Source: Parcubacteria group bacterium
GTDB lineage: Bacteria > Patescibacteriota > Minisyncoccia > Phycocordibacterales > Phycocordibacteraceae
DNA length: 64,000 nucleotides
Assembly (NCBI GenBank): GCA_028286615.1
Contig: JAQBRG010000005.1
Location: 913-64,912, forward strand
Direction of reading: 5' to 3'
Every line of letters begins with the position of its first letter. Position 1 is the first letter of the stretch. The position numbers and the translations under genes are program-made. The notes beneath the pieces are model-generated. The model was given only the letters and a program-made list of their open reading frames with translations. It was not told the origin of the DNA and searched no databases. Positions 4,523 to 50,054 of this stretch are shown piece by piece.

Positions 4523-4579
4523 AGGTATAGGCGTTAAGGCGGGTATGCGTAAAGTGTAGCACCGCGGTATTCTGGGTAC

Positions 4580-34363: not shown

Positions 34364-34380
34364 GCCCAAAACTATACCAT

Positions 34381-35298: not shown

Positions 35299-35331
35299 GT
35301 CTGAAGTATAGCAATAGAGTCACAGTAAAAA

Positions 35332-36636
35332 GTGATATACTGTTCATATATGTATGAAGACGACGCAGATCTCGGGGAAAAAGTAGAGGGAGATAAGAAA
35401 AGTGTGTGGGAGAGTCTGCGTTCTTTTCGTTTTGCAGCAGCACTCGCGCTCATGCTCGCCATCGGTTTTGCAGGCGGCATCTCAGTTAATGCTGAAGGCG
35501 CAACTCGCGTTCTCTCAAATATAGCCGCGCTCGGAGGCGGACTCGATGCAACTCCTGCAGAAGACGCAGACCTGACCGATTTTTGGAAAGCATGGAATAC
35601 GCTTGATGGACGTTTCGTACAAACTCATGCCTCCTCAACACTCCCGGGTTCCAAAGAGAAACTGTGGGGAGCTATCCAAGGCCTCGCTGATTCCTACGGC
35701 GACCCGTACACCGTATTCATGCCTCCTTCTGAGGCAAAGGTCTTCCAGGAGGACATCAAAGGAAACTTTGAAGGTGTTGGTATGGAGATAGGAGAGAAGG
35801 ACGGCATTCTTACCGTTATCGCGCCTCTCAAAGACACTCCAGCAGAGCGTGCAGGACTTCGCCCGGGCGACGGCATCCTTGCGATTGACGGCACGTCTAC
35901 TGACGGACTTTCAACAGACGAAGCCATTAAGCTCATTCGCGGACCAAAGGGGTCTATTGTTACGTTCCGCATCTTCCGTGCAGGAGAGATAAGCGACTTC
36001 AAGGTTACGCGCGACACTATCCAAGTTCCAACCATTAAGGAAGACCTTGATAAGGCTTCTGGTGTGTACACCATCGCTCTCTACACCTTTACGGCAAACT
36101 CTGGAGACCTATTCGCTAGAGCAATCTCTAACTTCAACGCCTCGGGTTCTAAGAAACTCATTATCGATCTTCGTGGAGACCCGGGTGGCTACCTTGAAGC
36201 TGCCGTTTCTATCGCAAGCAACTTCCTTCCAGAAGGTGCGGTTGTGGTAACGGAAGACTACAAGGGCAAGCAAGAAAACATTGTGCACCGAAGCACTGGC
36301 AAGGGAACTATCGGAAAGGATGTGAAAGTAGCCATCCTTATAGACCAGGGCTCAGCGTCTGCGTCAGAGATTCTCTCAGGAGCACTTCAAGACGCTAAGA
36401 TTGCAACCCTCATTGGTACTCGCTCATTCGGAAAGGGCTCAGTACAAGAACTTGTTAACATCAATGGCGGCGCACTTAAGGTTACAGTTGCTCGTTGGCT
36501 CACTCCATCAGGTCGCTCTATCTCAGATGGAGGCCTCACTGCAGACATCAAAGCAGACCTTACGGTTGAAGATGTGAAGGCAGGGAAGGACCCTCAGAAG
36601 GCACGCGCCATTGAGTTCCTAACTACTGGGAAATAA
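35332..36636 (+). CDS. ctpA: carboxyl-terminal processing peptidase (S41 family) with PDZ domain
   Basis: PDZ segment, DLRGDPGGYL and GTRSFGKGSVQ S41 catalytic signatures. Confidence 0.8.
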   Translation: MIYCSYMYEDDADLGEKVEGDKKSVWESLRSFRFAAALALMLAIGFAGGISVNAEGATRVLSNIAALGGGLDATPAEDADLTDFWKAWNTLDGRFVQTHASSTLPGSKEKLWGAIQGLADSYGDPYTVFMPPSEAKVFQEDIKGNFEGVGMEIGEKDGILTVIAPLKDTPAERAGLRPGDGILAIDGTSTDGLSTDEAIKLIRGPKGSIVTFRIFRAGEISDFKVTRDTIQVPTIKEDLDKASGVYTIALYTFTANSGDLFARAISNFNASGSKKLIIDLRGDPGGYLEAAVSIASNFLPEGAVVVTEDYKGKQENIVHRSTGKGTIGKDVKVAILIDQGSASASEILSGALQDAKIATLIGTRSFGKGSVQELVNINGGALKVTVARWLTPSGRSISDGGLTADIKADLTVEDVKAGKDPQKARAIEFLTTGK

Positions 36637-36679
36637 ATATAAACAAACAGGGCTGCACTATAGATGTGCAGCCCCTTGT

Positions 36680-37003
36680 TTATAGCTCAGCCAATCCGAA
36701 GACCAACACACCTCGTCGCTGCTGATCCCTTCTGGGATAAAGTTCAGATAAGCGTCGCATAATTTCATGAACCGGAACGCCAGGAGCAATAAGCTCTGGA
36801 GGTTCTGTCCGCATCATCGAAAAGAAATCAGAATAGCTACGAATAGCAGTGACGCGCCTTTTTACTTGACGGTTGAAGACGAGAACGTCACCGGTCTTAA
36901 TCTTTAGAGTTCGGTCATCCTTCACTCTAATTTCAAGAGCCTTACCCCGTTTGAAAAGGGGCATTACGTCGTTTGCAATTCGCAAGTCGTGCTCACAAGA
37001 CAT
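36680..37003 (-). CDS. ASCH-domain protein
   Basis: 107 aa; KRGKALEIRVKDDRTLKIKTGDVLVF resembles the ASCH beta-barrel GxKxxExR motif. Confidence 0.55.
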   Translation of the reverse strand: MSCEHDLRIANDVMPLFKRGKALEIRVKDDRTLKIKTGDVLVFNRQVKRRVTAIRSYSDFFSMMRTEPPELIAPGVPVHEIMRRLSELYPRRDQQRRGVLVFGLAEL

Positions 37004-37105
37004 CGCTTTCCCCTTTTCCGAATCTGAGTAGAATAAAACACACTTTACCCTAGATGTCGAGAATAAATTGCAATAGCTCGTACAAAAGAGTAAACTAGCC
37101 CCACT

Positions 37106-37531
37106 ATGAAAGTCATTTTAACCAAGGACGTGAAAGCAACAGGGAAGGGAGGCAGTATCGTTGAATGCGCTGATGGGCACGCAATGAACTTCCTTATTCC
37201 TCGTGGCCTCGCTATTCCGGCAACCGCAGCAAACCTCAAGAAGGCTGAAACCTTCAAACAGCAGGAAACCGATCGCAAGGAACTAGACCACAAGCTAGTA
37301 TCAGCGCGTATCGCAGCTCTTGCTGAGGAACGTATTGTTATCAAGAAAAAGGCAAACGACAAGGGACACCTATACGATGCTGTCGATGCGGCTGAGATTG
37401 CTGCGGCAACAGATCTTCCTGAGGAAGCTATAAAGCTTGAAAAGCCTATTAAGGATCTTGGAGAGATTGAAGTACCTGTCGCTATTGGCGAAGTATTCGG
37501 AAAGATAACGGTTGTTATCGAAGCAGAGTAG
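37106..37531 (+). CDS. rplI: 50S ribosomal protein L9
   Basis: [36 protein letters not shown] bL9 N-domain and C-domain. Confidence 0.9.
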
Positions 37532-37551
37532 TTAAAGATACAAACGTAAAA

Positions 37552-37585
37552 AGAGACGCTCCTCCTGGGGCGTCTCTTTGTTTTG
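37552..37585. terminator. bidirectional intrinsic terminator shared by rplI and the convergent high-GC gene
   Basis: agagacgc ... gcgtctct stem followed by ttgttttg. Confidence 0.6.
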
Positions 37586-37601
37586 TGTTGCGGTGTTGAA
37601 T

Positions 37602-38696
37602 TTAGGAGGCGTCAGCAGGCTCCTCGACCTTCTTGACGTAGGCGACGACCTCAGCAAGCCACTCGTTCATATTTCCGCGAGGCTTGAGATTGCATTCATT
37701 GAGCCATTTCTTGGCAGCTTCGCTCTTGAGCTCAGCTCTAAGAGCGTCATGATCAACCTCGACAGTGCCGGCCTCCACGTTGATGGTGAGCAGGCGGAAG
37801 TTTTGTCGACGACTCATCCACGCAGTGCGAACGAATCGTTCGAAGATAGATGGATTCTTAGGATTGAATTTTCCGTCCAGTACTTCAACCCGCAGAGGGA
37901 TTGCGTGGCCGAGACCATCCGTCATCAGCGACGGAGTGAGGTTGATTTCGAATCGGGTGGCAGATAGGGCTTCGCGGAACTTTCTGGCGTCCGCCTCAAC
38001 TCGAGCCGCTGCGGTTTTTGCGTCAGCGAGGTCAGAGCTCTTATTGGCGATGGTCCTTTCCCTATCGGCAAGTGAATTTTGAAGCTCAGCGTTCTGAGTT
38101 TTCAGTTCATCCGTTTCAAGTGATGTGCGGGCCGTGGCAGCTCTGGTAGGCTTGCGGTTGCGGGTAAAGACAACTAAGAGGAGTAGGGCGCCCAAAGCGG
38201 CGAGGATCAAGCTCTCGATGATTCTCCACAGATTTATAGTTGCGATCTTTTTATTCGCGTCCGCCAACTGAGTTTTCACGTTCGCGGGCTCTTTCTGTGC
38301 GAGGGCCAGTTTGGCCTTAGCGTCAGAAGCCTCTTTCTGCGCAGCAAGCAGCTGCGCCTTGAGCATCGATGTGGCAGCATCTTGCGCCACGATCTGGTTC
38401 GGCGTAGTGGCCGACGGGATATTGATGCCGGTCGCTTTCGTGGCGACGAGAATTTCGCGTTCGCAGGTGCCCCACACATGGTGAACCATGGGGGTGTTGC
38501 GGCCATTGATGATCAGTTCCGTACCGGCGACGAGATGCCGAGCACCCATTTCAGTCAGGTGGTTCTGGGCGAGCGTAGCGTTCTTGCAGACGTTGATTTC
38601 AGCGTTCGTGGGCTTCGCTTGCGCAACCGTGGCAACGCCAAGGCAGACGACAAGAACGGCCATGAAGGCCGCTATATGGTGTTGGAGCGATTTCAT
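37602..38696 (-). CDS. hypothetical bitopic membrane protein with signal peptide, Cys-containing ectodomain, coiled-coil and TM; high-GC
   Basis: 364 aa, GC well above surroundings; signal peptide MKSLQHHIAAFMAVLVVCLGVATVAQA, central Ala/Gln/Lys coiled-coil, TM (ILAALGALLLLVVF). Confidence 0.45.
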   Translation of the reverse strand: MKSLQHHIAAFMAVLVVCLGVATVAQAKPTNAEINVCKNATLAQNHLTEMGARHLVAGTELIINGRNTPMVHHVWGTCEREILVATKATGINIPSATTPNQIVAQDAATSMLKAQLLAAQKEASDAKAKLALAQKEPANVKTQLADANKKIATINLWRIIESLILAALGALLLLVVFTRNRKPTRAATARTSLETDELKTQNAELQNSLADRERTIANKSSDLADAKTAAARVEADARKFREALSATRFEINLTPSLMTDGLGHAIPLRVEVLDGKFNPKNPSIFERFVRTAWMSRRQNFRLLTINVEAGTVEVDHDALRAELKSEAAKKWLNECNLKPRGNMNEWLAEVVAYVKKVEEPADAS

Positions 38697-38771
38697 CGCA
38701 TCCTCCGTATTTCAACTAAAAAGGACTGTGTGTCCTGTGTCTTTTATGCCATAAATAGAGATAAAGAACAA

Positions 38772-38796
38772 CCCCGCAGCTAGTGCGGGGCTTTTC
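38772..38796. terminator. intrinsic terminator downstream of rpmA
   Basis: ccccgca gctag tgcgggg with flanking T/A runs. Confidence 0.5.
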
Positions 38797-38810
38797 TGTG
38801 GAATGCTTGT

Positions 38811-39092
38811 TTACGCAGGAAGGAGAACGTCTACAACCTTCTTGGTTACCACGCGGCCATCAAAATTGGTCTTGCGGCGGCTACGGAAGGCAACACGGCC
38901 CACAACCATGGAGTATAGGGTGTGGTCATGGCCAACCTTTACGTTCTTGCCGGCTTCGATTTTGGTACCGCGCTGGCGGACAATAACCATGCCTGGGCGA
39001 GCTGCCTGGCCATCAGCAAGCTTAATGCCGAGGTATTTCGGGTTCGAGTCATTGAGGTTTTTTGCTGAGCCTCCTGCTTTTGTGCTTGCCAT
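38811..39092 (-). CDS. rpmA: 50S ribosomal protein L27
   Basis: MASTKAGGSAKN...GIK...GQ....G.IIVRQRGTK bL27 signature. Confidence 0.9.
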   Translation of the reverse strand: MASTKAGGSAKNLNDSNPKYLGIKLADGQAARPGMVIVRQRGTKIEAGKNVKVGHDHTLYSMVVGRVAFRSRRKTNFDGRVVTKKVVDVLLPA

Positions 39093-39120
39093 ATCAGTAA
39101 ATGCTATTCTTTAGGTAGTT

Positions 39121-39543
39121 ATGAGCATACCAGACCTAGTAGGGCAAGGCAAGGCGCAGTTAAGCCGTATTCCGGCTAATGTCTTTATCGTCTCTATTCT
39201 GGTACTTTCGGCCTCCGCTTCCTTTGGTCTAGGCTTTCTAGCCGGGCAAGACCAGGCTCAGGCAGGGAAGAGTGGGGTATGGGTAGAAGACCTGTTTGCA
39301 GGGCAACAAGTTCAGGCTGTGAGCGAGGCTGCAGTGGCTTCAGCTCCTAAGCCTGCTCTTACAGCGACACCCACCCCAACAGGCACGGGAGCCTACGTAG
39401 CGTCCAAGAGTGGGGAGAAGTACTACCTAACAACCTGTAGCGGCGTGAGTCGTATCAAGGAAGAGAACAAGGTCTATTTCAATACCAAAGCCGAAGCAGA
39501 GGCTAAAGGATATGAGCCAGCAGCAAATTGCCCTGGGTTATAG
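39121..39543 (+). CDS. hypothetical membrane-anchored protein with C-terminal Cys-containing KYY..C.....I...N.V.F....EA.A.GY.P...C motif
   Basis: TM anchor (VFIVSILVLSASASF), Ala/Pro/Thr linker, conserved-looking C-terminal mini-domain. Confidence 0.4.
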   Translation: MSIPDLVGQGKAQLSRIPANVFIVSILVLSASASFGLGFLAGQDQAQAGKSGVWVEDLFAGQQVQAVSEAAVASAPKPALTATPTPTGTGAYVASKSGEKYYLTTCSGVSRIKEENKVYFNTKAEAEAKGYEPAANCPGL

Positions 39544-39557
39544 CGTAGAATAGAGAC

Positions 39558-40154
39558 ATGATTGTTCTTGATGTTGAATCCACTGGCCTTGTTGCTGAAA
39601 GACACTCTATCCTTTCCTTAGGCGCACTTGATCTCGATGATCCAACAAACCAGTTCTATGACGAGTGTCGCGTATGGGATGGTGCTGAGATAGAAGACGA
39701 AGCACTCGCTATAAACGGATTCAGCAGGGAAGAGGCAACAGACTCTTCAAGAAAGTCTGAAGCTGATCTTATACAAGCATTCGTGGCGTGGGCAACAGAT
39801 CGTCCGCAGGAACATACGCTCTCAGCACAGAATCCTTCTATGGATTTAGAATTCGTGCAGGCAGCATGTAAGAGGGCAGGGATAGAGTGTCCTTTCGCGA
39901 AACGCACTATAGATATACATACTGTTGTATGGCTTCACATGCGCATGAATGGAGTTGAGCCTCCAACAAACAAGAAGCGTTCTGCGATAAATCTAGACTA
40001 CGCACTCAAGTACGTTGGTCTTCCTGAAGAGCCAAAACCACATAACGCACTCACTGGTGCCTATTCACATGCAGAAGTGCTCTCGCGCATAGCGTATAAT
40101 CAGAAATTATTGCCTGACTACGAGTCATACGACATACCATGGGAGACGAACTAA
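39558..40154 (+). CDS. DEDDh 3'-5' exonuclease (DnaQ/epsilon-like)
   Basis: MIVLDVESTGL (Exo I), FVAWAT/AQNPSMDLEF (Exo II), H-containing Exo III region. Confidence 0.7.
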   Translation: MIVLDVESTGLVAERHSILSLGALDLDDPTNQFYDECRVWDGAEIEDEALAINGFSREEATDSSRKSEADLIQAFVAWATDRPQEHTLSAQNPSMDLEFVQAACKRAGIECPFAKRTIDIHTVVWLHMRMNGVEPPTNKKRSAINLDYALKYVGLPEEPKPHNALTGAYSHAEVLSRIAYNQKLLPDYESYDIPWETN

Positions 40155-40951
40155 AAATTTCAACAGAGCCAGACGGAGAACTTGATGTTCCCGGTCTCCC
40201 TGCTGCAATAGGGGAGGGGGAGAACAAAGAGCGTAGCCAGCGTCTTGGTTCAGTACTCGCCGAAGCAATTCAGCACGGCAAGGATAAGGTTCCTGCAGTC
40301 CCAGCGCCTCTCGTCTGTAAACCGCAACAGCTTGAAAGTTGGCGCGTGTTTAAGATCATGGCTGAGTTCGTAGACGGCTTCGATCTTCTTAAGAAATATG
40401 GACTATCAGCAACCTTCTTTGGAAGCGTTCGTACGCAGCCTGAAGATCCATATTACAAAGCAGCCGTTGCGCTCGCAGGGAAGCTCGCTAAGAGCGGCTA
40501 CGCAATTATTTCAGGTGGAAGTGCCGGTATTATGGAAGCCGCCAACAGAGGCGCTCACGAGGCAGGAGGAGCTTCTGTAGGGCTTAATATCCGTCTTTCT
40601 GACAACCAGACTTTCAACAAGTACCTTACGGACTCCATGGTCTTTGACCACTTCTTCGTGCGTAAGGTTATGCTCGCATTCGCTTCAGAAGTGTATGTAT
40701 ACTTCCCAGGAGGCTTTGGTACGCTGGACGAACTAACCGAGATCCTTACACTTGTGCAAACCAAGAAGATTAAGCCTGTTCCAATTGTGCTGTACGGCAA
40801 AGAGTTCTGGACACCTATTGTTGACCTCTTTAAGAACGAACTGTTTGCGAAGTATCACAACATTGATAAAGCAGATCTCAATTTGTTCGTGCTTCTCGAT
40901 TCTGTAGACGAAGCGTATGACTACATTATTAAGAACGTAACGAGCTGCTAA
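40139..40951 (+). CDS. LOG family protein (TIGR00730; cytokinin riboside 5'-monophosphate phosphoribohydrolase-like)
   Basis: GGSAGIMEAANRGA and PGGFGTLDEL motifs; N-terminal extension present, so the start is uncertain. Confidence 0.75.
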   Translation: MGDELKISTEPDGELDVPGLPAAIGEGENKERSQRLGSVLAEAIQHGKDKVPAVPAPLVCKPQQLESWRVFKIMAEFVDGFDLLKKYGLSATFFGSVRTQPEDPYYKAAVALAGKLAKSGYAIISGGSAGIMEAANRGAHEAGGASVGLNIRLSDNQTFNKYLTDSMVFDHFFVRKVMLAFASEVYVYFPGGFGTLDELTEILTLVQTKKIKPVPIVLYGKEFWTPIVDLFKNELFAKYHNIDKADLNLFVLLDSVDEAYDYIIKNVTSC

Positions 40952-41106
40952 GACGTATGGCCTCCTCAAAGAAAAAGGTACAGAAGCGGGCTCCTCAAGT
41001 ATTCAATACTAAAGGGATTAACAGCTTCTCAAATAAAGGAGTGCAGAAGCCGGTTAGAGCTTCGTACTTCGGAAAGAAGGCTCGATAATGATTTTTTTAC
41101 AGAAAA

Positions 41107-41144
41107 CCGGTCTGAACAAACATGTTCAGACCGGCTAGTTTTTA
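41107..41144. terminator. strong bidirectional terminator at the 3' end of the RT gene
   Basis: ccggtctgaac aaacat gttcagaccgg 11-bp perfect stem with T/A runs on both sides. Confidence 0.6.
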
Positions 41145-42352
41145 GGTATTTCAATATCGTAATCGCGTGCAAGTTTTAATACCGCTTGGCGAAACGATAC
41201 TCTCTCAGCGAATTGTACAAAGTCGATTACGTCCCCGTGTCTGCCGCTTGAAAAGCAATGCCAGAAACTCTTCTCCGGAACCACGAAGAACGAAGGGGTC
41301 TTCTCTTTTGTGAACGGGCTGAGGCATACGTACTCTCTGCCTCTCTGCGTGAGAGAACAATAAGAAGCTATTACCGCTACGAGTGGCGCATACTTACGCA
41401 CGCCATCGACGAACTCAATGCTTAAACGATTAGATTCGCGAGCCCATCGTTTGGGCAGCAAGCCCTCATCTTGAAGCTTGAAAATCCGTAGGGCGCATTC
41501 GTGCAAAAGCACCTTGAAGTTAGGTGAGACTTTTGTTCGACTGCTGCGAGTTCTTCCAATCGATCGAACGTGACTAACCAAACCGAGAAACGAATGTGCT
41601 TCTTCCGGTGTGGTTATGGCTCCTGCGAGCAGTGTTGCCAACTTCTGGCTTTGTTCGACAGTTGGACCCATGTATCCTTTCGGAGTCAGAACCACACCCG
41701 TTATTGTGATTGAAGACTTGCATCTATCTTTCACGAATGATTTTCGACGGTTAATTGAAAAACCTGCAGCTGACACCACGTCCCGGATTCGTTTTCGCAA
41801 AATATGCGGAATGGGATCCATCGAAGAAATGGTCAGATCGTCGAGATACCGGGTGTATACCGTCCGCGGCATGTCGATAAGATTACGTATACGAGAATCA
41901 ATCTCATGCGCGCAGTACAGATCGAACAGGGCAGGGGAGCAGGGTGCACCAACTGCCAAGCCGCCATCCTTGGAAGCACAGTGTGTTTTCAAGAATTTTA
42001 GCGTAGAAGCAGGATGGGTAAGCCGAGTATCGAGTGCATGCAATGCGTGTACCAGTTTGGTAAGAGACACGTTTGCATACGCTTCTCTAACATCAAGCTG
42101 GTAGAAATATCGGTTCTCAATATGCCACGCTGCGTTGTCTTTTCCTGAGCGTCCACTTAAGGCACCGAACGAAGAAAACAGTACAAAGTTGATATCAGGT
42201 ATGTCCTGTAGATAACCAAGCAGTCTCGTGTGCACTCTGCGCATTGCAACATTTGGATGCGCGATAAGTCGCTTCTTGCCCTTCGGGTATTGAATACTCC
42301 AGTCAAAGAGCGGAACACCAGAAGAGGTGTCCGCGAGCTCGGAGAGCTGCAT
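41135..42352 (-). CDS. reverse transcriptase (retron-type, NAxxH motif) fused to a C-terminal DnaG-primase-type zf-CHC2 zinc finger
   Basis: RT motifs: FYQLDVREAY (A), GAPCSPALFDLY (B'), YTRYLDDLTI (C, YxDD), NAAWH (retron NAxxH), ITITG. C-terminus CLSPFTKEKTPSFFVVPEKSFWHCFSSGRHGDVIDFV matches the zf-CHC2 of DnaG. Strong AGGAGG RBS 8 nt upstream. Confidence 0.8.
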   Translation of the reverse strand: MQLSELADTSSGVPLFDWSIQYPKGKKRLIAHPNVAMRRVHTRLLGYLQDIPDINFVLFSSFGALSGRSGKDNAAWHIENRYFYQLDVREAYANVSLTKLVHALHALDTRLTHPASTLKFLKTHCASKDGGLAVGAPCSPALFDLYCAHEIDSRIRNLIDMPRTVYTRYLDDLTISSMDPIPHILRKRIRDVVSAAGFSINRRKSFVKDRCKSSITITGVVLTPKGYMGPTVEQSQKLATLLAGAITTPEEAHSFLGLVSHVRSIGRTRSSRTKVSPNFKVLLHECALRIFKLQDEGLLPKRWARESNRLSIEFVDGVRKYAPLVAVIASYCSLTQRGREYVCLSPFTKEKTPSFFVVPEKSFWHCFSSGRHGDVIDFVQFAERVSFRQAVLKLARDYDIEIPKN

Positions 42353-42403
42353 TGGATCCTCCTAAGTGTTAAGCCGTGTTCATCCTGAGCGCCTGAATGA
42401 GCA

Positions 42404-42440
42404 AAGTCAAATAAATAAAACCGACCCTGAATACTGGGTC
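42404..42440 (-). terminator. intrinsic terminator/attenuator-like hairpin immediately upstream of the RT ORF (minus orientation)
   Basis: Minus strand: cgaccc agtattca gggtcg followed by GTTTTATTTATTTG. Confidence 0.45.
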
Positions 42441-42451
42441 GGGTGATCTTT

Positions 42452-42620
42452 GCCTACAACGGGGGCCTGGAGAACCCTAGAAAACCGTTGTAGGCCGCCG
42501 GAGGCGACGCCGGACGTGTGCAGGCAGTGCCGTAGACCGGTGCGGATGTGAGCCTGAATCTCTTCCCGTGCTGGTCTAGAGAAGCATCAGGCGCGGTGAC
42601 GGGTCAAGCCCCATCGTTTA
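42452..42620 (-). ncRNA. candidate structured non-coding RNA upstream of the RT (possible retron msr/msd-like or other RT-associated ncRNA)
   Basis: GC-rich block in an AT-rich, ORF-free 700-nt region. 10-bp perfect inverted repeat CCTACAACGG/CCGTTGTAGG at 42452..42493, then CCGG-rich nested palindromes. Strand assumed to match the RT. Confidence 0.25.
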
Positions 42621-43055
42621 CATATTGGTCTTGAGTATATGTAGTTCAAGTCCTAGGCAATCCATAGGTGCTGATCTAAATATATAAGAAAGAACAGCTG
42701 TTCTCCAGGCAACGCCGCGTACCAGATGGTTTCAGCGTCAAAACTACTTTAGCAGAGCAGGGGAGTTACGTCTAAAAGGCACCTTACTATTCTCCTATTT
42801 ACCACTTCCCCAGTGTTCTTTTTGGCTTTTCGGGGAAGTGGTCACTTTTGCATAGATTGGTACGTACATAAATAAATACAGATAGGATTTCTTCTCACAG
42901 ATTTTTTCTAGACCTGTAGAGAGGGAAGAGAAGTACCAAATAGGAACTAAGCCTTAGGTGGTATTTAGCCCTTCCAGCTTATATACGTACACTTCGTACA
43001 ATATATCTTTGACGTAGTGTAACTGTTTGAGCCTATATAGTTACTTGCTCATCGA

Positions 43056-43736
43056 CTATGCAAATGTAAGCGCTTCTCTATTGTCACAAAACCTTCGGAA
43101 AGCATCCCAGGACATTAGTGACTGGTTCCCTGCCAGCTTCTTATCTTTTGTTTGAATAAACAAGTCAAGAATATCTTGAGTAAGATCAGGGTTCATTTGT
43201 AAGAATATTACGGGATAAGGTTGGTCTCTTGTGCACTCATATTTAAGAAGTTTACTATTTATGCAACCAACCAGGCTTCGTTTGTCTGAGGCGAAGAATG
43301 CATCAACACAGAAATTACCATTCTGATCATATATAAAGAAGTCAGCTCTACTACGAGTCTCTTCGCTAAAGAGATACTCTCGATGAACTAACTCCTTATG
43401 AAAACGCTTGCAGAGGTATGTATATACGTCGCTCTCATTCTTGTGAGCCCTTTTACCGATGGTTAGGGCACGGTCAGAGCTATGAGCTCCAGACCTATAA
43501 TCATCCTGACCACCAATACCAAGTTGCCGTCTTAGAGAAACAACGCCTCCAAAGCTATATTCAATTGCTCTTGAACTGGGCAAGTAAGGATAAGCATCTA
43601 TTTCGGGTGTCGTAGGATAGTGATTGTTTTCGAGGAAAAATTGTTCAAATCCAGCCTGAATTTCTTCAAGCTGCCATGGAGTCCTGTTCCCTTTTTGTAT
43701 TCGTAGTGGCATATCACTTATCAGTATTTCATACAA
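43056..43736 (-). CDS. hypothetical protein, co-oriented with and upstream of the RT locus (candidate partner/effector)
   Basis: 226-aa AT-rich ORF without recognisable domains, separated from the RT by the non-coding block. Confidence 0.4.
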   Translation of the reverse strand: MYEILISDMPLRIQKGNRTPWQLEEIQAGFEQFFLENNHYPTTPEIDAYPYLPSSRAIEYSFGGVVSLRRQLGIGGQDDYRSGAHSSDRALTIGKRAHKNESDVYTYLCKRFHKELVHREYLFSEETRSRADFFIYDQNGNFCVDAFFASDKRSLVGCINSKLLKYECTRDQPYPVIFLQMNPDLTQDILDLFIQTKDKKLAGNQSLMSWDAFRRFCDNREALTFA

Positions 43737-43821
43737 AGATATGAAAGTTATGAACTCGCCTGCTCGAGTATCCGAGATTAAATACGGCCCACTCTATGAA
43801 TATTTTAGGTAGGGGACTTCC

Positions 43822-44322
43822 CTATTTAACTACTAGGGTAACAGTAATCTCCTTTATAAACTGAGCACACATTTCGTCAGGATTGCATATTGGTCTGCCT
43901 GTAGCGTGAAGTGTAGTCGTTCCTACGGTACTTGCTGTATATACTCCTTGCTCTCCACGAATGGTAGAAATGTTTGTAACGCGAGTAACAATGCCTGTTG
44001 GATCGAAAGAAAGCTCCCATTGAAGAGAATCGCCCATGGCTATACCAAAGCGCTGGCCATGTTTAAGAACGACTGTCGTGTTGTCATCAGCCTGAGTAAC
44101 CATGTTCACCTCGGTCGTTGCAGGAGTCTCAGGGGGCGTGGTTACCGTTGTAACAGTGGTTGTGGTTGTAGTGCTCGCCAACTCTGTTGCAGGTGTAGAG
44201 GAAGCTGTAGAAACCTCTGGCGTTGCTGGAGGAGTATTAACGCTAAGCATAAAATACCCGGCAATACCGATAAGGATAATGACGCTAACAAGGCCGAGGA
44301 TGATGACATGCTTTTGGTTCAT
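43822..44322 (-). CDS. membrane-anchored Thr-rich secreted protein (possible protease-inhibitor I42/chagasin-like C-domain)
   Basis: N-terminal TM anchor, TTTTTTVTTVTTPPETPATT linker, beta-rich C-domain. Confidence 0.4.
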   Translation of the reverse strand: MNQKHVIILGLVSVIILIGIAGYFMLSVNTPPATPEVSTASSTPATELASTTTTTTVTTVTTPPETPATTEVNMVTQADDNTTVVLKHGQRFGIAMGDSLQWELSFDPTGIVTRVTNISTIRGEQGVYTASTVGTTTLHATGRPICNPDEMCAQFIKEITVTLVVK

Positions 44323-44372
44323 GGGATGGTACTTAAAGTGTATGACGTTAAAGATACTACTTTCTTACCTCT

Positions 44373-45293
44373 CTACATTGAACGAAGAAAGCGGCTAATA
44401 CGATCTGAGAAAGAAATCATTAAAGTCCCAAGATATTTTTTAAAGGTAGGCTTCGTGAGACCGGCAGTGTTTTGTGTTGCGTCTGGGTGGTACGCAATAA
44501 GGATCTCAGCTGTGGTAGCAACACGTAGTTCAATCGGCACTGACGTTGTTGAGATAACAAAAGGGATTGAGGCAGTAACGGTTGAGGTTGCGAGAGTGCT
44601 TGTGGCCGTTGAGTCTGTTAGAGACCGTACAATCTCTTTAATATCTTTTCCAACAGGAGTCTCACTAATAGGAGTTGGTTTAAGTACCTGTGGAGGGGTG
44701 GAGATTGAAACGTTTGGCGTAACTAGTTTAATAATAGGAACAACAGGCTCTGTGGTCTTTGGCTTTGCAGGCGGCAGTACCGCAGGAGGCGTAGCGAACA
44801 TCTGTACAACAAAGAGTGCGTCCTGGCCTTTGTAGGTACCTTTGGCAACTCCAACTCCCATGTACTTAAACCCACCATCAAGAATGTTATGCCTGTGTGC
44901 AGGGGAGCCCATCCATGCAGACACAACATCTTCAGAGTCCAAGATGTTAACGGTTAGATTCTCTCCCATGTAGTTGTACTTGTACCCGACAACATCTAGC
45001 CAGTGCATAGGCGTTACGCCCTCAGGAGAGACGTGTGCGTAATAGCTATTCTTTGCCATGTCTTCAGCCTTAAGCTGCGCAGCTCGACTAACGAACACAT
45101 CCTCGGAAAGGGTAGGCACACTTTCCTTCTCTCGCTCTGAGTTTGTTAGGGAGAAGACCTTGCTGGCTTGGACTGACGCAACCGTTCTGTCAGCAAGAGG
45201 CTTCTCAATCAGATCTTTAGAAGTGTGTAGAGCTACGGAGAATACAACAATACAGGAGAAGACGAGAAGCACGTCCCGAACATGTTTGTTCAT
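44373..45293 (-). CDS. CAP (SCP/PR-1, YkwD-like) domain secreted protein with Pro/Thr-rich C-terminal tail
   Basis: KNSYYAHVSPEG...GENL......VVSAWMGSPAHRHNIL....YMGVGVA CAP signature; signal-anchor MNKHVRDVLLVF. Confidence 0.65.
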   Translation of the reverse strand: MNKHVRDVLLVFSCIVVFSVALHTSKDLIEKPLADRTVASVQASKVFSLTNSEREKESVPTLSEDVFVSRAAQLKAEDMAKNSYYAHVSPEGVTPMHWLDVVGYKYNYMGENLTVNILDSEDVVSAWMGSPAHRHNILDGGFKYMGVGVAKGTYKGQDALFVVQMFATPPAVLPPAKPKTTEPVVPIIKLVTPNVSISTPPQVLKPTPISETPVGKDIKEIVRSLTDSTATSTLATSTVTASIPFVISTTSVPIELRVATTAEILIAYHPDATQNTAGLTKPTFKKYLGTLMISFSDRISRFLRSM

Positions 45294-45350
45294 TATGATA
45301 GTTATAAAACAAAACTTAAAAGTTAGCAACCAGGGTTAAGGCCAGAATGG

Positions 45351-46322
45351 TTACGTATTCTTTACACTATATTCAATAAATCCTACATGAGTTGCTTCTG
45401 GCTCAAGAGTCAGAAGGCCGTTTGCGCCAGGGTCATTAGCGTTTACTGCATCAGTGCTGCAAGTCTGAGGCTCAATCTCAATCGTTCGGTCTTTGCCTAG
45501 GGTGTGCAAAACAATAAACTTACAATCCGCTGATGCGCGTATGCTAACTTCTAGATTTTCGGTTGGATATGAAATAACTGCCGGTTCGTCTGGTATCAAA
45601 TCAGTAAATACATGATCTAGCCTAAGTGCCGCGTTTACGGGTACCGGCTTCCGTAAATCAAACTGTCTAAACATAACTAAATCTAGATCAAGTAGTTCGT
45701 TAGTAGGAAGCAGGTCCTTATCCATACGCATAACTTGATTGGCAGGGAGCGTGAGCATAGTCTCGTCTCCTGAAAGACGCTTAAAAGAAGGATGAAGTGC
45801 GAAGCCAAATGGCATACGCTTGTCACTTGTGTTAGTTACTAAATATTCAATACGGAGTCCTAATTCTGAAAGTCGATACGTCAAGGTTAATTTTGAGGGT
45901 ACTGGAAACACGTCAAAGTATTCCTGTGAAGAATCCCAGTGCATGCTGGTTGTTACAAGCGCTGTGTCCCCTTCTACTGTAGGTACGCCATCAATATTCC
46001 ATTCCGCGTCATGGGCTAAGCCATGAATAAGCGCATTATCATCTACTCGTTTTGGATAATTCTCCAAAGAGTAGGAAGTATTCTCAAAAGTAAACTTCCT
46101 ATCACGTATGCGATTAGGAAAAGGATACAGAACAAAGCAGCCTGTATAAGCATGTTCTAACAATGCTTCCCTGTTTGTATGTATAAGTTCCCTCTCGTCT
46201 GTCTTGAGTGAGATAAGATTGCTTCCACAATCTACAGCTATTTCCGCAGAAAGAGCCCCGCTCTTAAGAGACGCTATGGTCCCTAATTTCTCATCTTGAT
46301 ACGTTGTCGCAAGAGGAGCCAT
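45351..46322 (-). CDS. aldose 1-epimerase (galactose mutarotase-like) family protein
   Basis: YPFPNRIRDRKFTFENTSYSLENY matches the aldose-epimerase NRI..G.F...G..Y.L..N motif; 323 aa. Confidence 0.7.
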   Translation of the reverse strand: MAPLATTYQDEKLGTIASLKSGALSAEIAVDCGSNLISLKTDERELIHTNREALLEHAYTGCFVLYPFPNRIRDRKFTFENTSYSLENYPKRVDDNALIHGLAHDAEWNIDGVPTVEGDTALVTTSMHWDSSQEYFDVFPVPSKLTLTYRLSELGLRIEYLVTNTSDKRMPFGFALHPSFKRLSGDETMLTLPANQVMRMDKDLLPTNELLDLDLVMFRQFDLRKPVPVNAALRLDHVFTDLIPDEPAVISYPTENLEVSIRASADCKFIVLHTLGKDRTIEIEPQTCSTDAVNANDPGANGLLTLEPEATHVGFIEYSVKNT

Positions 46323-46333
46323 ATCCCTAGCGT

Positions 46334-46681
46334 CTATCCGATCCTGTCAGCTAGTGGAGGTACAGACGCATTCATACGAGCCGTAGCTTCGTTTGCAGTC
46401 TGCTTGTACTTGTCTGCCTCTGCTCGAAGATTGTTAATCTCTTTCTTCAACTTCCCCATCTGGATGCTGCTGCCAATAGCTCCTGGAAGAGACACGAGGA
46501 GACTAAGGACAATACCAAGAAGAATGGCAAGGATAACAACAACTGCTAGAGAGCTCTCAAACTGAAGGCCCATGAATGCAAGAGCTACAACCTCTGTGTT
46601 TTGAAGAATAAAGACAATGGCACCAACGCCGAGCACGAAGCCGATTATAAGTGAAAATATCATAGCAATATTATACCCCAA
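46334..46681 (-). CDS. LapA/DUF1049-family inner-membrane protein
   Basis: Two N-terminal TM helices followed by a coiled-coil (KLKKEINNLRAEADKYKQ). Confidence 0.5.
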   Translation of the reverse strand: MGYNIAMIFSLIIGFVLGVGAIVFILQNTEVVALAFMGLQFESSLAVVVILAILLGIVLSLLVSLPGAIGSSIQMGKLKKEINNLRAEADKYKQTANEATARMNASVPPLADRIG

Positions 46682-46690
46682 AAATAATAA

Positions 46691-47380
46691 CTAGGATTGC
46701 TCTGTGTAGTACTCAATCTTTATATCGTCTATCCACTCAGTGCCCGGAATAATGCTTAGGACTTTGCCAAAAATACGGGAATCTTCCTGTTTAACCACAA
46801 TTGGATAATAGGTGCCGTAGCTATTTTCAGGATTAAGATACACAACCTCATCTACCCGCTCGAATCGCTTGATAACTGCCATATTCCCAAGAATGGCAAC
46901 GACTCTGTCTCCGTTATCAACCTGGTTCGTTACCTCAACAATAACGTAGTCTCCGCTATGAATACCCGCGTCCTGCATACTGTCCCCCACTGCTTTAACT
47001 GCCACAATATTTGTTTGGCTAGCACGAGGACCAATGAGGCTGCGCTCTACAACGATGTACTCGCCGTATTGACTGTCGGCATAGACTTCCATGGCATCGC
47101 AACCCGCTGACGCAATAACAGGTACTTGTATAAGGTCTGAGCACATCTGAGATTCAACCCCATCAATTAGTGAAATGCTGCGATGCTGGAAGCGATCTCT
47201 CTTAATAAGGCCTTTCTTCTCAAGTCCCTCAATACGCTGGGTAACGCTCCTAAGAGAGCGGAGCTTTAGCTGAGTTGCAAGTTCTGTAATCGTTGGAGAC
47301 TTCCCGTTTTTCTCAATAGAGTTCTGAATGAGAACGAGCGTCTCTTTCTGTGCGGGCGTGAGTCCTACGAGCTTGGTCAT
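46691..47380 (-). CDS. lexA: SOS repressor LexA
   Basis: N-terminal wHTH; S24 peptidase motifs AVKAVGDSM (Ser) and ...VAILGNMAVIKRF (Lys). Confidence 0.85.
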   Translation of the reverse strand: MTKLVGLTPAQKETLVLIQNSIEKNGKSPTITELATQLKLRSLRSVTQRIEGLEKKGLIKRDRFQHRSISLIDGVESQMCSDLIQVPVIASAGCDAMEVYADSQYGEYIVVERSLIGPRASQTNIVAVKAVGDSMQDAGIHSGDYVIVEVTNQVDNGDRVVAILGNMAVIKRFERVDEVVYLNPENSYGTYYPIVVKQEDSRIFGKVLSIIPGTEWIDDIKIEYYTEQS

Positions 47381-47398
47381 AGATGTATGCTAGCACCC

Positions 47399-47450
47399 AC
47401 ATGTTTTAAAGAACATACACAACATGTGTATTTATCCACACAACATACAC
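47399..47450. promoter_or_regulatory. candidate LexA operator(s) in the lexA / exonuclease-GIY-YIG divergent promoter region
   Basis: Palindrome ATGTT-ttaaag-AACAT at 47401..47416, with further AACATGT and CATACACAA repeats; TGTACAAT extended -10 just upstream of 47483. Confidence 0.4.
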
Positions 47451-47482
47451 AAGTTGAGAAAAACTTTGTACAATGAGCAGTA

Positions 47483-48916
47483 ATGCGCGTTCCTTGTCTT
47501 AGTGGTGCGAACTATGCCGTTGTCGATGTGGAGACAACGGGCACTAGTGCTACCTATGGACAGATAATCGAGATAGGAATTATACGTATCGAAGATGGAG
47601 AGGTTGTTGATACGTATCAGACATTCATCAAACCTACGAGTACGCTTAATCCTTTCATAACTTCTCTAACAGGAATACGAGATGCAGATCTGGAAAACGC
47701 CCCTTCCTTTGAACAAGTATCAGGACGCATACAGGAACTCCTTGAAGACGCTGTATTCGTAGCTCATAACGCACGCTTTGATTACTCCTTTGTTAAGAGC
47801 GAGTTCAGGCGTCTCGGTATCTCTTGGAATGCCAAGACTCTTTGTACTGTGCGCATGTCTCGGAAACTCTTCCCGGCTGAGAAGGCGCATAACTTAGATG
47901 CCCTTATAGAACTCCATGGTCTCCGAATGGAAAACAGGCATCGTGCCTTTGACGACGCGTACGCGCTCGTTGAGTTTATTACTATTGCTGCAGAAAAGCG
48001 TTCTGAAGAATTAGTGCGTGAGACTATTGCAACCATTCTCGGGAATCATACGCTCCCAGCGGCTATAGAACCAAGCGTTGTTAAGAATCTTCCGCATGCG
48101 CCTGGCGTGTACATCTTTTATGGAAACGAAGACAACGTCCTCTATGTTGGAAAAAGTGTAGACATAAAGACACGTGTGATGTCACACTTCTCCGCAGACC
48201 ATCTCTCAGGCAAGGAGCGGGCCATGTGCGAAGAAACTGCACACATAGAGTATGAAGTAACGAGTGGCGAGCTCTCTGCCCTGCTGCGCGAGTCCATCCT
48301 CATCAAAGAACTCTTGCCGCTGTATAACCGCAAGCTACGCAAAGCAAAAAAGCTTGCTGTTATAGCAAGCGAGACAAATGAGCTCGGATACAAGCATGCG
48401 GCCGTGGCGTATAGGGACGAATTAGATCAAGAAGACTTCGGGAATACCGAGGGCGTATTTAGAACTGCTTCTCAAGGCAAAGCGTCTCTTAAAGAAGCTG
48501 TTAAGGAATATCAGCTGTGCCCAAAGCTTCTAGGTATAGAGAAAGGTTCAGGTGCCTGTTTCCAGTACCAACTTAGAAAGTGTTTAGGGGCCTGCCTCGG
48601 AAAGGAAAATGTAGACATGTACAATGCTCGCTTCGCACAAGCGTTCGAGAAGCGTCGCATACGTTCTTGGCCCTTTAAAGGTCCAGTTATGCTGCCAGAA
48701 GATCCATCTGCTGAAGAAGGCACTGTGTATGTTATTGACCAGTGGCGAATACTGAAGACTCTTTCCTACACCACAGACGGGTATGACGAACGAGAGGTTG
48801 ATTCAGATTTTGATTACGATTCCTACAAGATTCTCAGCAAGCACCTTCTTCGCAGAGATGTGCGCGCAAAGCTAACGCCCTACACATCCCAGCTTTCAAG
48901 GGAGTATGCTTATTGA
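47483..48916 (+). CDS. DnaQ-like 3'-5' exonuclease fused to a GIY-YIG nuclease domain (SOS-context repair nuclease)
   Basis: N-terminal AVVDVETTG/FVAHNARFD/HRAFDDA DEDDh motifs. Central PGVYIFYGNEDNVLYVGKSVDIKTRVMSHF GIY-YIG motif. Divergent from lexA. Confidence 0.75.
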   Translation: MRVPCLSGANYAVVDVETTGTSATYGQIIEIGIIRIEDGEVVDTYQTFIKPTSTLNPFITSLTGIRDADLENAPSFEQVSGRIQELLEDAVFVAHNARFDYSFVKSEFRRLGISWNAKTLCTVRMSRKLFPAEKAHNLDALIELHGLRMENRHRAFDDAYALVEFITIAAEKRSEELVRETIATILGNHTLPAAIEPSVVKNLPHAPGVYIFYGNEDNVLYVGKSVDIKTRVMSHFSADHLSGKERAMCEETAHIEYEVTSGELSALLRESILIKELLPLYNRKLRKAKKLAVIASETNELGYKHAAVAYRDELDQEDFGNTEGVFRTASQGKASLKEAVKEYQLCPKLLGIEKGSGACFQYQLRKCLGACLGKENVDMYNARFAQAFEKRRIRSWPFKGPVMLPEDPSAEEGTVYVIDQWRILKTLSYTTDGYDEREVDSDFDYDSYKILSKHLLRRDVRAKLTPYTSQLSREYAY

Positions 48917-48924
48917 ATCAATTT

Positions 48925-49983: not shown

Positions 49984-50054
49984 AAATAGGTATTTAGGAG
50001 TAAGAGTAGGCAAAGTATAAGTCTTCCATAGTGTGCGTATCATGAAGACAAACG

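What the first reader, a model, noticed from the sequence alone, without database searches (positions are those of the whole stretch)
41107..43736. Retron-type reverse transcriptase fused to a DnaG-primase zinc finger, with ~700 nt of structured non-coding DNA and a co-oriented hypothetical gene
The 405-aa ORF has all RT palm motifs (F..D at FYQLDV, GAPCSPALFDLY, YLDD) plus the retron-diagnostic NAxxH (NAAWH) and an ITG/VTG-like motif. Its last ~60 residues, CLSPFTKEKTPSFFVVPEKSFWHCFSSGRHGDVIDFV, are an unmistakable zf-CHC2, the zinc-binding domain of DnaG primase. I do not recognise an RT-zf-CHC2 fusion among well-known retron, Abi, DRT, DGR or group II architectures. Upstream in the RT orientation lies a 700-nt ORF-free region ending in a GC-rich structured block with a hairpin-plus-U-run 40 nt before a strong AGGAGG RBS. 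Further upstream is a 226-aa hypothetical protein that could be the effector. A perfect 11-bp terminator closes the locus. The layout of ncRNA, RT and accessory protein fits a retron/defence-RT system, possibly an undescribed variant.
Basis: partly seen in the sequence, partly recalled or inferred. Interest (0 to 1): 0.82.

Follow-up and report, generated by a model that had tools for sequence, protein, structure and literature searches.

The report
Retron-like RT fused to primase finger
A small two-part cassette in an ultra-small (CPR/Parcubacteria) bacterium pairs a structured ~330-nt RNA gene with a retron-type reverse transcriptase carrying the DNA-recognition finger of primase; this combination has not been described, and what it does is unknown.

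Summary
The 405-aa ORF (41135..42352, minus) is a catalytically intact retron-type RT, by HMM and by fold. It carries a C-terminal DnaG-type zinc-ribbon domain (Pfam E=3e-26). In this copy three of the four zinc ligands are replaced (S/T/C/S). About 50 related fusion proteins exist among 1.84 billion representatives; all that carry a source name or record title are CPR bacteria, and they form one clade beside a larger family of ~300-aa RT-only relatives.

Only the proximal ~330 nt of the 700-nt gap is conserved. It is a separate RNA gene with its own promoter and terminator, followed by the RT's own promoter. It has a covarying long-range a1/a2-like helix, a covarying hairpin with a conserved UG/AGAU internal loop, and a helix that encloses a2.

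The 226-aa gene is not part of the system. It is missing beside every homologue. A syntenic genome has that gene and the downstream neighbours but no RNA or RT, so RNA+RT is a ~2-kb indel cassette.

No effector gene is conserved. No Rfam family, DGR repeat or intron domain is present.

Best reading: a two-component, retron-like element of a new architecture. cDNA synthesis and the finger's role are inferred, not shown.

The parts
41135..42352 (-). CDS of the RT-ZBD fusion protein, 405 aa
   Evidence: ORF. Identical to a database protein that NCBI names 'MAG: primase [Parcubacteria group bacterium]'. AF2 model has mean pLDDT 92.5, with a low-confidence linker at aa 303-307.
41453..42352 (-). 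Retron-type reverse transcriptase domain with thumb, about aa 1-300. Catalytic D87, D171 and D172 are intact; NAAWH and ITG motifs are present.
   Evidence: Pfam RVT_1. PADLOC retron RT models. NCBIfam retron_St85_RT 1.4e-29, 103 bits, below the 235-bit cut-off. Foldseek top hits are retron RTs, TM 0.64-0.74 normalised by target length. Invariant columns.
41141..41416 (-). DnaG-primase-type zinc-ribbon domain (ZBD), aa 313-404; S, T, C, S at the four CHC2 ligand positions
   Evidence: Pfam PF01807 3.2e-26. TIGR01391 dnaG, N-terminal 96 positions only. 1D0Q alignment. Ligand census.
41100..41134 (-). Intrinsic terminator of the RT gene: perfect 12-bp stem, 4-nt loop, then a short U run
   Evidence: I7; sequence
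42358..42363 (-). Shine-Dalgarno AGGAGG, 5 nt before the ATG
   Evidence: sequence
42382..42410 (-). Promoter-like site of the RT gene: TTGACT (42410..42405), 17-nt spacer, CAGGAT (42387..42382). TTGAC is conserved at this position in homologues.
   Evidence: Alignment of 11 upstream regions; coordinates. Inferred; no transcript data.
42411..42739 (-). ncRNA gene, about 330 nt. The 5' end is estimated from the promoter-like site; the 3' end is the terminator U-run.
   Evidence: Conserved in presence, size and architecture upstream of all 11 core RT-ZBD genes. No Rfam match.
42746..42774 (-). Promoter-like site of the ncRNA: TAGACG, 17-nt spacer, TAAAGT. It is the positional equivalent of TTGnnn-N16/17-TAnAnT found at -408 to -434 in 8 of the 11 loci (window included) and at -525 in L007.
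   Evidence: Inferred. A second candidate at 42707..42679 lies inside the RNA and would remove a1.
42700..42710 (-). a1 arm (GCCUGGAGAAC) of the long-range helix P1
   Evidence: Found blind as inverted repeat I11, 11/11 complementary. Present in the unconstrained MFE of all 11 homologous segments. Covariation: 89.7% of cells paired, 10 of 11 pairs with double changes, 0/500 shuffles.
42465..42475 (-). a2 arm (GUUCUCCAGGC) of P1
42544..42599 (-). P5 hairpin: outer helix, conserved internal loop (5' UG / 3' AGAU), CUYC/GRAG inner helix, then CCC. Candidate RT-recognition element.
   Evidence: Alignment A3 and pair counts: 78% of cells paired, covariation score 0.43 against 0.20 for shuffles, 0/500. 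Model R1 hits the window at 31.6 bits, E=2.8e-6, and finds it only in the 11 core loci.
42452..42495 (-). P6 helix: GCCUACAACGG (42495..42485) pairs with CCGUUGUAGGC (42462..42452), enclosing a2 in its loop. It is either a pseudoknot with P1 or an alternative fold.
   Evidence: Inverted repeat I10, 11/11 complementary. By eye, the homologous arms read GCCUCAG / CUGAGGC or a close variant in most loci and have different but complementary sequences in the window and L091; no partner found in L088. Duplex energies beat shuffles only in the window, L087 and L091. Moderate support.
42411..42442 (-). Intrinsic terminator of the ncRNA: 7-bp GC-rich stem plus UUUUAUUUAU
   Evidence: an equivalent hairpin plus U-run is visible in the aligned homologues

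Best explanation
This is a self-contained two-gene retroelement cassette of CPR (Patescibacteria) bacteria. It consists of a ~330-nt structured non-coding RNA gene and, directly downstream, a retron-type reverse transcriptase. The RT's C-terminus carries a flexibly tethered copy of the DNA-recognition zinc-ribbon domain of DnaG primase.

Shown:
- the two protein domains;
- an intact catalytic triad;
- the retron-like fold;
- conservation and covariation of the RNA's a1/a2-type closing helix and of a hairpin with a fixed UG/AGAU internal loop;
- separate promoter-like and terminator signals for the RNA and for the RT;
- absence of any conserved third gene;
- presence or absence of the cassette as a unit at a syntenic site.

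Inferred:
- The RT binds the RNA, with the P5 hairpin as the likely recognition element.
- As in retrons, it uses the a1/a2 duplex to place a guanosine 2'-OH just 3' of a1. In the window the sequence there is AGC. In 10 of 11 homologues a G lies within 1-4 nt by my reading of the sequences.
- It copies the variable hairpin region that lies between P5 and a2 into a short cDNA that stays bound.
- The primase finger has no catalytic centre of its own. It most likely serves as a single-stranded-DNA or partner-binding module. It could hold the cDNA, sense foreign or replicating ssDNA, or dock on the primase-helicase machinery. In this way it would take the place of the separate effector of classical retrons.
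- Conservation of EKTPSF and HGD despite zinc-ligand loss in the window's subclade argues that this surface, not zinc chemistry, is under selection.

Patchy distribution argues for an accessory role (conflict or defence, or selfish) rather than an essential one.
For: - Domains and motifs.
- Retron affinity by HMM. By fold: on a model with pLDDT 92.5.
- Family: 22 clusters; about 50 full-length representatives of 1.84e9. The ZBD-bearing RTs form a single clade.
- RNA: ORF-free gaps of about 350-550 nt upstream of the RT in the homologue loci. Promoter-like and terminator signals.
- P1 appears in all 11 unconstrained MFE folds, was found blind in the window, and covaries. P5 covaries and is detected by model only next to core RT-ZBD genes.
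- G-U pairs and the U-run fix the RNA to the RT strand.
- No conserved neighbour gene in 53 loci.
- The cassette is absent at the syntenic site of L175/L176.
- Similar long-range inverted repeats lie upstream of many RT-only relatives.
Against: - No transcript, cDNA or msDNA data exist.
- The branching G cannot be identified by sequence.
- Unlike textbook retrons (established knowledge), a terminator and a second promoter-like site separate the RNA from the RT.
- The RNA is larger and more branched than typical msr-msd RNAs.
- The P6 helix competes with, or is knotted with, a1/a2. In the 396-nt fold of the window the MFE chooses P6 rather than P1.
- The segments used for the P1 count were cut at helix ends, so that test is partly circular.
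- The RT scores far below NCBIfam retron cut-offs (103 against 235 bits).
- No toxin-like effector is present, so the standard retron abortive-infection logic has no obvious executor.
- Neighbouring genes are housekeeping, not defence genes.
Confidence: 0.6

Rival explanations
1. The system is not defence. The RT-finger RNP works with the replication machinery of these reduced genomes. For example, the primase finger could dock on DnaG or DnaB, or on primase initiation sites, so that RT-made DNA serves in priming, repair or restart.
For: The fused domain is specifically the template-recognition module of the replicative primase (its role is established knowledge of DnaG and T7 gp4). Neighbours are always housekeeping genes, and some lineages keep local synteny (aaRS - RT - peptidase M50 - RRF in L004, L087, L089). 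No toxin or effector is linked. No close relative was found in the phage, plasmid or IMG/VR collections.
Against: The family is rare: about 50 representative clusters. It is absent at a syntenic site in a related genome, so it is not essential. It sits at different chromosomal sites in different lineages. Zinc ligands are lost in about a quarter of members. No interaction data exist.
Confidence: 0.18
2. The RNA templates cDNA without a 2'-5' branch, as in the ncRNA-dependent defence RTs DRT2 and DRT9 (repetitive or homopolymeric cDNA). The a1/a2-like helix is then only an architectural closing stem.
For: The RNA is a separate transcription unit. It is large and multi-branched, with a possible pseudoknot around a2. 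DRT2 and DRT9 RT-ncRNA structures appear among the fold matches (ranks 26-27).
Against: DRT hits are much weaker than retron hits: Drt2 1.4e-3 and Drt3a 2.6e-7 against retron_St85 1.4e-29. All of the best 25 PADLOC hits are retron RT models. The retron-specific NAxxH and VTG-type motifs are conserved.
Confidence: 0.12
3. One reading: a classical tripartite retron in which the co-oriented 226-aa gene is the effector.
For: The gene lies adjacent and co-oriented. Its predicted fold weakly resembles PD-(D/E)XK nucleases (BstEII 3.2e-4; Bax1, Can2, Card1), a plausible effector type.
Against: It has no homologue in any of the related RT loci fetched by then, and no conserved neighbour family exists in 53 loci. 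Its 45 homologue clusters (50-59% identity) occur without an RT: L173/L174, and L175/L176, the latter syntenic with the window but lacking the RNA and RT. About 280 non-conserved nt and a separate promoter-like site lie between it and the RNA.
Confidence: 0.05
4. A degenerate group II intron or a diversity-generating retroelement (DGRs dominate CPR reverse transcriptases).
For: DGRs make up about 80% of CPR RTs (PMC8632793, read). The RT fold is shared among all these classes.
Against: No Rfam intron or other family is found in the window or in 10 homologue loci. No template/variable-region type direct repeat lies within 16 kb. The group II maturase HMM scores only 2.8e-6. The motif around GAPCSPALF is of retron type, not the DGR SQ type (established knowledge). 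The DGR RT is only fold-match rank 34.
Confidence: 0.02

Closest known systems
Retrons with a fused effector domain: type I-C RT-Toprim (Ec67/Eco2), type VII RT-DUF3800, type XI RT-protease, type XII RT-TIR
   Same: A retron-clade RT with conserved NAxxH and VTG-type motifs. An upstream ncRNA closed by an a1/a2-type inverted repeat. A second domain fused C-terminally to the RT, so that RNA plus one protein make up the system (PMC8632793 as read).
   Different: The fused domain is the non-catalytic zinc-binding domain of DnaG. It is not a nuclease, protease or TIR, and it is not among the fusions listed in those papers. The RNA has its own terminator and the RT its own promoter-like site. The RNA is about 330 nt with extra helices (P5, P6). 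The hosts are CPR bacteria. HMM scores are far below the family cut-offs.
Orphan retrons (RT plus ncRNA without an associated protein, e.g. the Retron-Eco5/Ec107 branch)
   Same: No linked effector gene. Mestre et al. [quoted passage not shown] The ~300-aa RT-only CPR relatives fit this picture.
   Different: Here the RT has acquired a primase finger. PADLOC Ec107-like and outgroup models score lower than the RT_VI and RT_II-A models.
UG29 and UG6/UG24 (Class 3 UG/Abi RTs associated with DnaG-type primase)
   Same: An RT combined with DnaG-derived sequence that includes a CHC2 finger (PMC9226505).
   Different: Those carry a whole DnaG-type primase (CHC2 plus Toprim), together with hydrolase or phosphohydrolase domains, on very large proteins (almost 2500 aa for UG29) or as separate genes, and the RT is of the UG/Abi lineage. 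The window protein is 405 aa, its RT is retron-like, and only the finger is present.
DnaG primase / T7 gp4 zinc-binding domain
   Same: Homologous fold and sequence, including EKTPSF and HGD. In primases this domain reads the ssDNA template and acts on a polymerase domain through a flexible linker (established knowledge). Here it is tethered to a different polymerase by a low-confidence linker.
   Different: There is no Toprim RNA-polymerase domain and no helicase-binding domain. Three of the four zinc ligands are replaced in this copy.

Membership tests
Retron | RT belongs to the retron clade, with the retron-specific NAxxH motif and a VTG-type motif after the palm | tested here: met
   NAAWH and ITG are present; N73, H77 and G219 are invariant, A74 and T218 nearly invariant. 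Best HMM hits are retron models. Best fold matches are retron RTs. No reference phylogeny was built.
Retron | Adjacent ncRNA (msr-msd) whose ends pair through inverted repeats a1/a2 | tested here: met
   11-bp perfect repeat 42710..42700 / 42475..42465. The helix is present in all 11 MFE folds. 10 of 11 pairs covary, 0/500 shuffles. Caveat: the segments were cut at helix ends.
Retron | Branching guanosine and production of msDNA (a 2'-5' linked RNA-DNA molecule) | not testable with these tools
   By my reading, a G lies 1-4 nt after a1 in 10 of 11 RNAs (AGC in the window, L087 and L090). This is not diagnostic.
Retron | msr-msd and RT transcribed as one operon from a promoter upstream of msr | tested here: inconclusive
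   A conserved intrinsic terminator and a conserved TTGAC..CAnGAT promoter-like site lie between the RNA and the RT. Read-through cannot be excluded without RNA data.
Retron | Third component: an effector protein or enzymatic effector domain | tested here: not met
   No conserved neighbour gene in 53 loci. The fused domain is a non-catalytic zinc ribbon.
Retron types I-XIII (NCBIfam/PADLOC models) | Score above a curated family threshold | tested here: not met
   retron_St85_RT scores 103 bits against a 235-bit cut-off; Ec67 59 against 450; TIR type 62 against 600.
DnaG-type primase | CHC2 zinc ribbon with four zinc ligands | tested here: not met
   The fold and family match (PF01807, 3e-26), but the ligand positions read S/T/C/S in the window. 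Most family members keep CHCC.
DnaG-type primase | Toprim RNA-polymerase domain and helicase-binding domain | tested here: not met
   Only profile positions 4-96 of 414 of TIGR01391 match. No Toprim Pfam hit.
UG/Abi (DRT) reverse transcriptases | RT of the UG/Abi lineage | tested here: not met
   Drt3a 2.6e-7 and Drt2 1.4e-3 against retron 1.4e-29. All of the best 25 PADLOC hits are retron RT models.
Diversity-generating retroelement | Template and variable repeats near the RT | tested here: not met
   No direct repeat of 30 nt or more that would fit, within 34000..50000.
Group II intron | Intron RNA domains flanking a maturase RT | tested here: not met
   No Rfam hit even at E<=10 in 40900..44000, nor at gathering threshold in the window or 10 loci.

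The most novel reading that the evidence does not exclude
The RT-finger RNP is not an abortive-infection retron at all. It is a replication-linked device of CPR bacteria. In this reading the primase template-recognition domain targets an RNA-templated, self-primed DNA synthesis to ssDNA at the fork, or to the primase-helicase complex. The result would be either a backup primer or repair patch, or a jam of a phage replisome without any toxin.
Probability: 0.15. Interest if true: 0.9.

Novelty: new variant of a known kind. Interest (0 to 1): 0.62.

Why it matters
If the inference holds, this is a retron-like system whose only protein partner is a DNA-recognition finger borrowed from the replicative primase, with no toxin. 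That would show that retron RNPs can act through nucleic-acid or replisome binding rather than through a released effector.

It would also give a first handle on the large set of orphan RT-plus-RNA elements in CPR bacteria, where nearly all known RTs are DGRs.

The cassette is compact (about 1.7 kb) and modular, with separate RNA and protein units. That could interest retron-based DNA-writing tool development.

The RNA itself matches no Rfam family and may contain a pseudoknot around the priming helix.

Tried and rejected
- A full-length MAFFT alignment of the RNA followed by RNAalifold gave zero pairs. MAFFT on the 3' domain misaligned several sequences. I therefore tested helices on short targeted alignments and listed the P6 arms by hand.
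- A sequence-only nhmmer profile of the RNA recovered only its own training loci plus a duplicate.
- Model R1 of hairpin P5 did not find the motif next to distant RT-ZBD genes or RT-only relatives. P5 is therefore specific to the core clade.
- The genome-contig scan with the whole-protein alignment was swamped by DnaG genes. It returned only one full-length fusion locus, L007, so prevalence in genomes could not be measured.
- A test of the longest upstream helix against mononucleotide shuffles was only weakly discriminating: mean 10.5 against 8.8.
- Duplex-energy tests of P6 were individually non-significant in 8 of 11 loci.
- The supplement of Mestre et al. 2020 is not held, so I could not check its domain tables for PF01807.
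- I considered and rejected a DGR, a group II intron, a UG29-like primase-RT, and a protein-coding upstream region. The small ORFs called there in homologues differ in strand and position.
- No DnaG gene lies in the 64-kb window. Whether this genome has a normal primase is therefore unknown.
Full report
**What is in the window**

The minus-strand ORF 41135..42352 encodes 405 aa. Pfam finds RVT_1 (aa 24-208, E=5e-17) and Zn_ribbon_DnaG/CHC2 (aa 313-404, E=3.2e-26), both above gathering score.

The RT is retron-like by three independent measures:
- All of the best 25 PADLOC hits are retron RT models, led by RT_VI at 1.4e-27 and RT_II-A at 2e-26.
- The best NCBIfam hit is retron_St85_RT at 1.4e-29. 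Drt3a, group II maturase and Drt2 trail at 1e-7 to 1e-3. No retron model reaches its curated cut-off.
- An AlphaFold2 model (pLDDT 92.5, built on a 20-sequence alignment) matches solved retron RTs best. These are Eco7 9kjx, Ec86 7v9x, Ec78 9nnb, Ec83, Eco2 and Eco8, with TM 0.64-0.74 over about 310 residues.

The family alignment keeps the catalytic D87, D171 and D172, and the retron-type motif residues N73, H77 and G219, invariant (A74 and T218 nearly so). The model shows palm, fingers and a three-helix thumb up to about aa 295. A low-confidence linker follows (aa 303-307), then an independent zinc-ribbon domain.

**The finger**

The C-terminal 100 residues align to the solved DnaG zinc-binding domain of Bacillus (1D0Q, E=4.8e-17) and of Aquifex (2AU3). 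They match only positions 4-96 of the 414-position dnaG model. There is no Toprim or helicase-binding part.

At the four zinc ligand positions the window reads S, T, C, S, where canonical DnaG has C, H, C, C (ligand positions from my knowledge of DnaG). Among 53 fused homologues, 35 keep CHCC, 3 have CCCC and about 12 form a Ser-type subgroup that includes the window. EKTPSF and HGD stay conserved throughout.

**The family**

The identical protein is in NCBI as 'MAG: primase [Parcubacteria group bacterium]' on a 67.5-kb contig. The word-indexed search found 22 clusters of RT+CHC2 proteins at 35-47% identity. Every cluster with a source name is CPR (Paceibacterota, Kaiserbacteria, Parcubacteria).

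An exhaustive profile search of 1.84 billion representatives found about 50 full-length fusions. Hundreds of ~300-aa RT-only relatives follow; 553 hits have E<=1e-30. In a rough neighbour-joining tree of the RT domains, all finger-bearing RTs form one clade, which suggests a single fusion event.

No record in the phage or plasmid collections covers 80% or more of the protein. IMG/VR holds only distant retron-like RTs at 21-28% identity.

**Context**

In ten homologue loci the gene is solitary among housekeeping genes: aminoacyl-tRNA synthetases, MreB/C, RRF, peptidase M50, RecJ and LexA. All-against-all clustering of ORFs in 53 loci of the wider family found no conserved neighbour.

The 226-aa ORF of the window is not part of the system.
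- It has no Pfam, PADLOC, NCBIfam or PHROG hit.
- It has no homologue in any related locus.
- It has 45 homologue clusters of its own at 50-59% identity in Patescibacteria. These sit in loci without any RT.
- Locus L175 is decisive. It is syntenic with the window: 226-aa gene, LOG-family gene, RNase T-like gene, L27, L9, S41 protease. Yet it has only 357 nt where the window has about 2.1 kb holding the RNA and the RT.

The unit is therefore RNA plus RT-finger, gained or lost as a block.

**The RNA**

Upstream of the RT gene the homologue loci have ORF-free gaps of about 350-550 nt. Aligning 11 upstream regions shows three features:
- a promoter-like site TTGnnn-N16/17-TAnAnT at about -410 to -430 in 8 of the 11 loci, counting the window (TAGACG-N17-TAAAGT, 42774..42746), and further upstream at -525 in L007;
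- an RNA of 310-340 nt (430 nt in L007);
- a hairpin plus U-run, followed at once by TTGAC(T)-N17-CAnGAT and a ribosome-binding site.

The RNA and the RT thus look like separate transcription units. In the window the terminator stem is 42442..42421 and the RT -35 box is 42410..42405.

Helix P1 is the a1/a2-type helix.
- It was found blind in the window as a perfect 11-bp inverted repeat, 42700-42710 / 42465-42475.
- A homologous CYUGGRAG / CUYCCARG helix is among the best three long-range helices in most of the core loci in an unbiased scan.
- It is part of the unconstrained minimum-energy fold of all 11 segments.
- On a MAFFT alignment of the two arms, 89.7% of cells pair and 10 of 11 pairs show double changes. 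No shuffle of 500 reaches the score, and slid controls pair at 30-55%.
- The caveat is that the segments were cut at the helix ends.

Hairpin P5 (window 42599..42544) has a fixed internal loop, 5' UG / 3' AGAU, between two covarying helices. 78% of cells pair, and the covariation score is 0.43 against 0.20 for shuffles (0/500). A covariance model of it finds it only next to the 11 core RT-finger genes.

Between P5 and a2 lies a hairpin region that varies in length and sequence. That is the position where a retron would carry msd.

Helix P6 has consensus arms GCCUCAG...CUGAGGC. Its arms have different but complementary sequences in the window (11 bp) and in L091. It encloses a2 in its loop. Either P1 and P6 form a pseudoknot or they are alternative states. 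In the 396-nt fold of the window the MFE picks P6.

G-U pairs and the U-runs place the RNA on the RT strand. No Rfam family matches in the window or in ten homologue loci. Long-range inverted repeats of 9-16 bp at similar positions also precede many RT-only relatives. The a1/a2 principle is therefore probably ancestral to the whole CPR clade.

**How it most likely works**

Shown: an intact retron-type polymerase, a conserved partner RNA with an a1/a2 closing helix and a conserved recognition-like hairpin, a tethered primase finger, and no third gene.

Inferred: the RT binds the RNA, primes from a guanosine next to a1, copies part of the variable hairpin region into a bound cDNA, and uses the finger as an ssDNA- or replisome-binding module in place of a separate effector.

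The biological role is open. Patchy distribution favours an accessory conflict function. The housekeeping neighbourhood and the origin of the finger keep a replication-linked role alive.

**Comparison with what is known**

Retron reviews and the 2020 classification list Toprim, DUF3800, protease and TIR as RT fusions. They do not list a zinc finger. UG29, UG6 and UG24 combine UG/Abi-lineage RTs with a whole DnaG-type primase and hydrolase or phosphohydrolase domains; that is a different lineage and architecture.

Full-text searches found nothing that describes this fusion. The terms were retron with CHC2, Parcubacteria, Patescibacteria, or DnaG zinc-binding domain. The library is incomplete, so absence is not proof.

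I file this as a new variant of the retron kind, not as a member of any described type. The RT and a1/a2 criteria are met. The effector and curated-threshold criteria are not met. Operon organisation is inconclusive. msDNA is untestable here.

**Verdict**

Noticed in passing
window 43056..43736 (-); probable CDS 43056..43712: The neighbouring 226/218-aa gene belongs to a well-conserved Patescibacteria family of unknown function: 45 clusters at 50-59% identity, with no Pfam domain on record for the close members (one distant member carries PF18780). Its AF2 model (pLDDT 83.5) weakly matches PD-(D/E)XK nucleases (BstEII E=3e-4; Bax1, Can2, Card1). Invariant residues include H110, R111, E112, D124, D137 and Q172 (K154 nearly invariant). 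It lies in a low-GC stretch (0.41 against about 0.48).
   Followed up: partly
L175 5679..6034 compared with window 40952..43055: A related genome keeps the same gene order as the window but lacks the RNA+RT cassette. The cassette is therefore an indel of about 2 kb. No flanking direct repeats or other insertion signatures were seen in the window.
   Followed up: partly
window 42801..42842: A perfect 11-bp inverted repeat (ACCACTTCCCC / GGGGAAGTGGT, 20-nt loop) lies just upstream of the ncRNA promoter-like site, inside the non-conserved 280 nt. It has no U-run and its function is unknown.
   Followed up: no
window 42679..42707 (-): A second promoter-like site (TGGAGA-N17-TATATT) lies inside the ncRNA, overlapping a1 and P2. 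If used, it would give a shorter RNA without a1.
   Followed up: no
L001/L002/L003, 7317..7736 (-): In the Kaiserbacteria loci an RNase H gene (Pfam RNase_H, RVT_3) lies convergent and immediately downstream of the RT-finger gene. Host RNase H is known to process retron msDNA. This adjacency is not conserved in other lineages.
   Followed up: no
L110 2881..3909 and 4294..5094: One RT-only relative locus carries a second RT-like ORF 385 nt downstream of the first (tandem RTs).
   Followed up: no
L112 and L129: Two distant members of the fused clade have only a weak match to the finger profile (22 and 17 bits). Their upstream gaps are longer and hold a GCCGGGGGAGC / GCUCCCCCGGC helix. The finger may be decaying in some lineages.
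   Followed up: no
window 46691..47380 (-), 47483..48916 (+), 39558..40154 (+): Several DNA-damage or nuclease-type ORFs lie within 6 kb of the cassette, judged from their translations only (no HMM run): a LexA-like repressor, a DnaQ-like exonuclease apparently fused to a GIY-YIG/UvrC-like module, and an RNase T-like exonuclease. LexA also lies about 4.6 kb from the RT gene in L005. These look like ordinary core genes.
   Followed up: no
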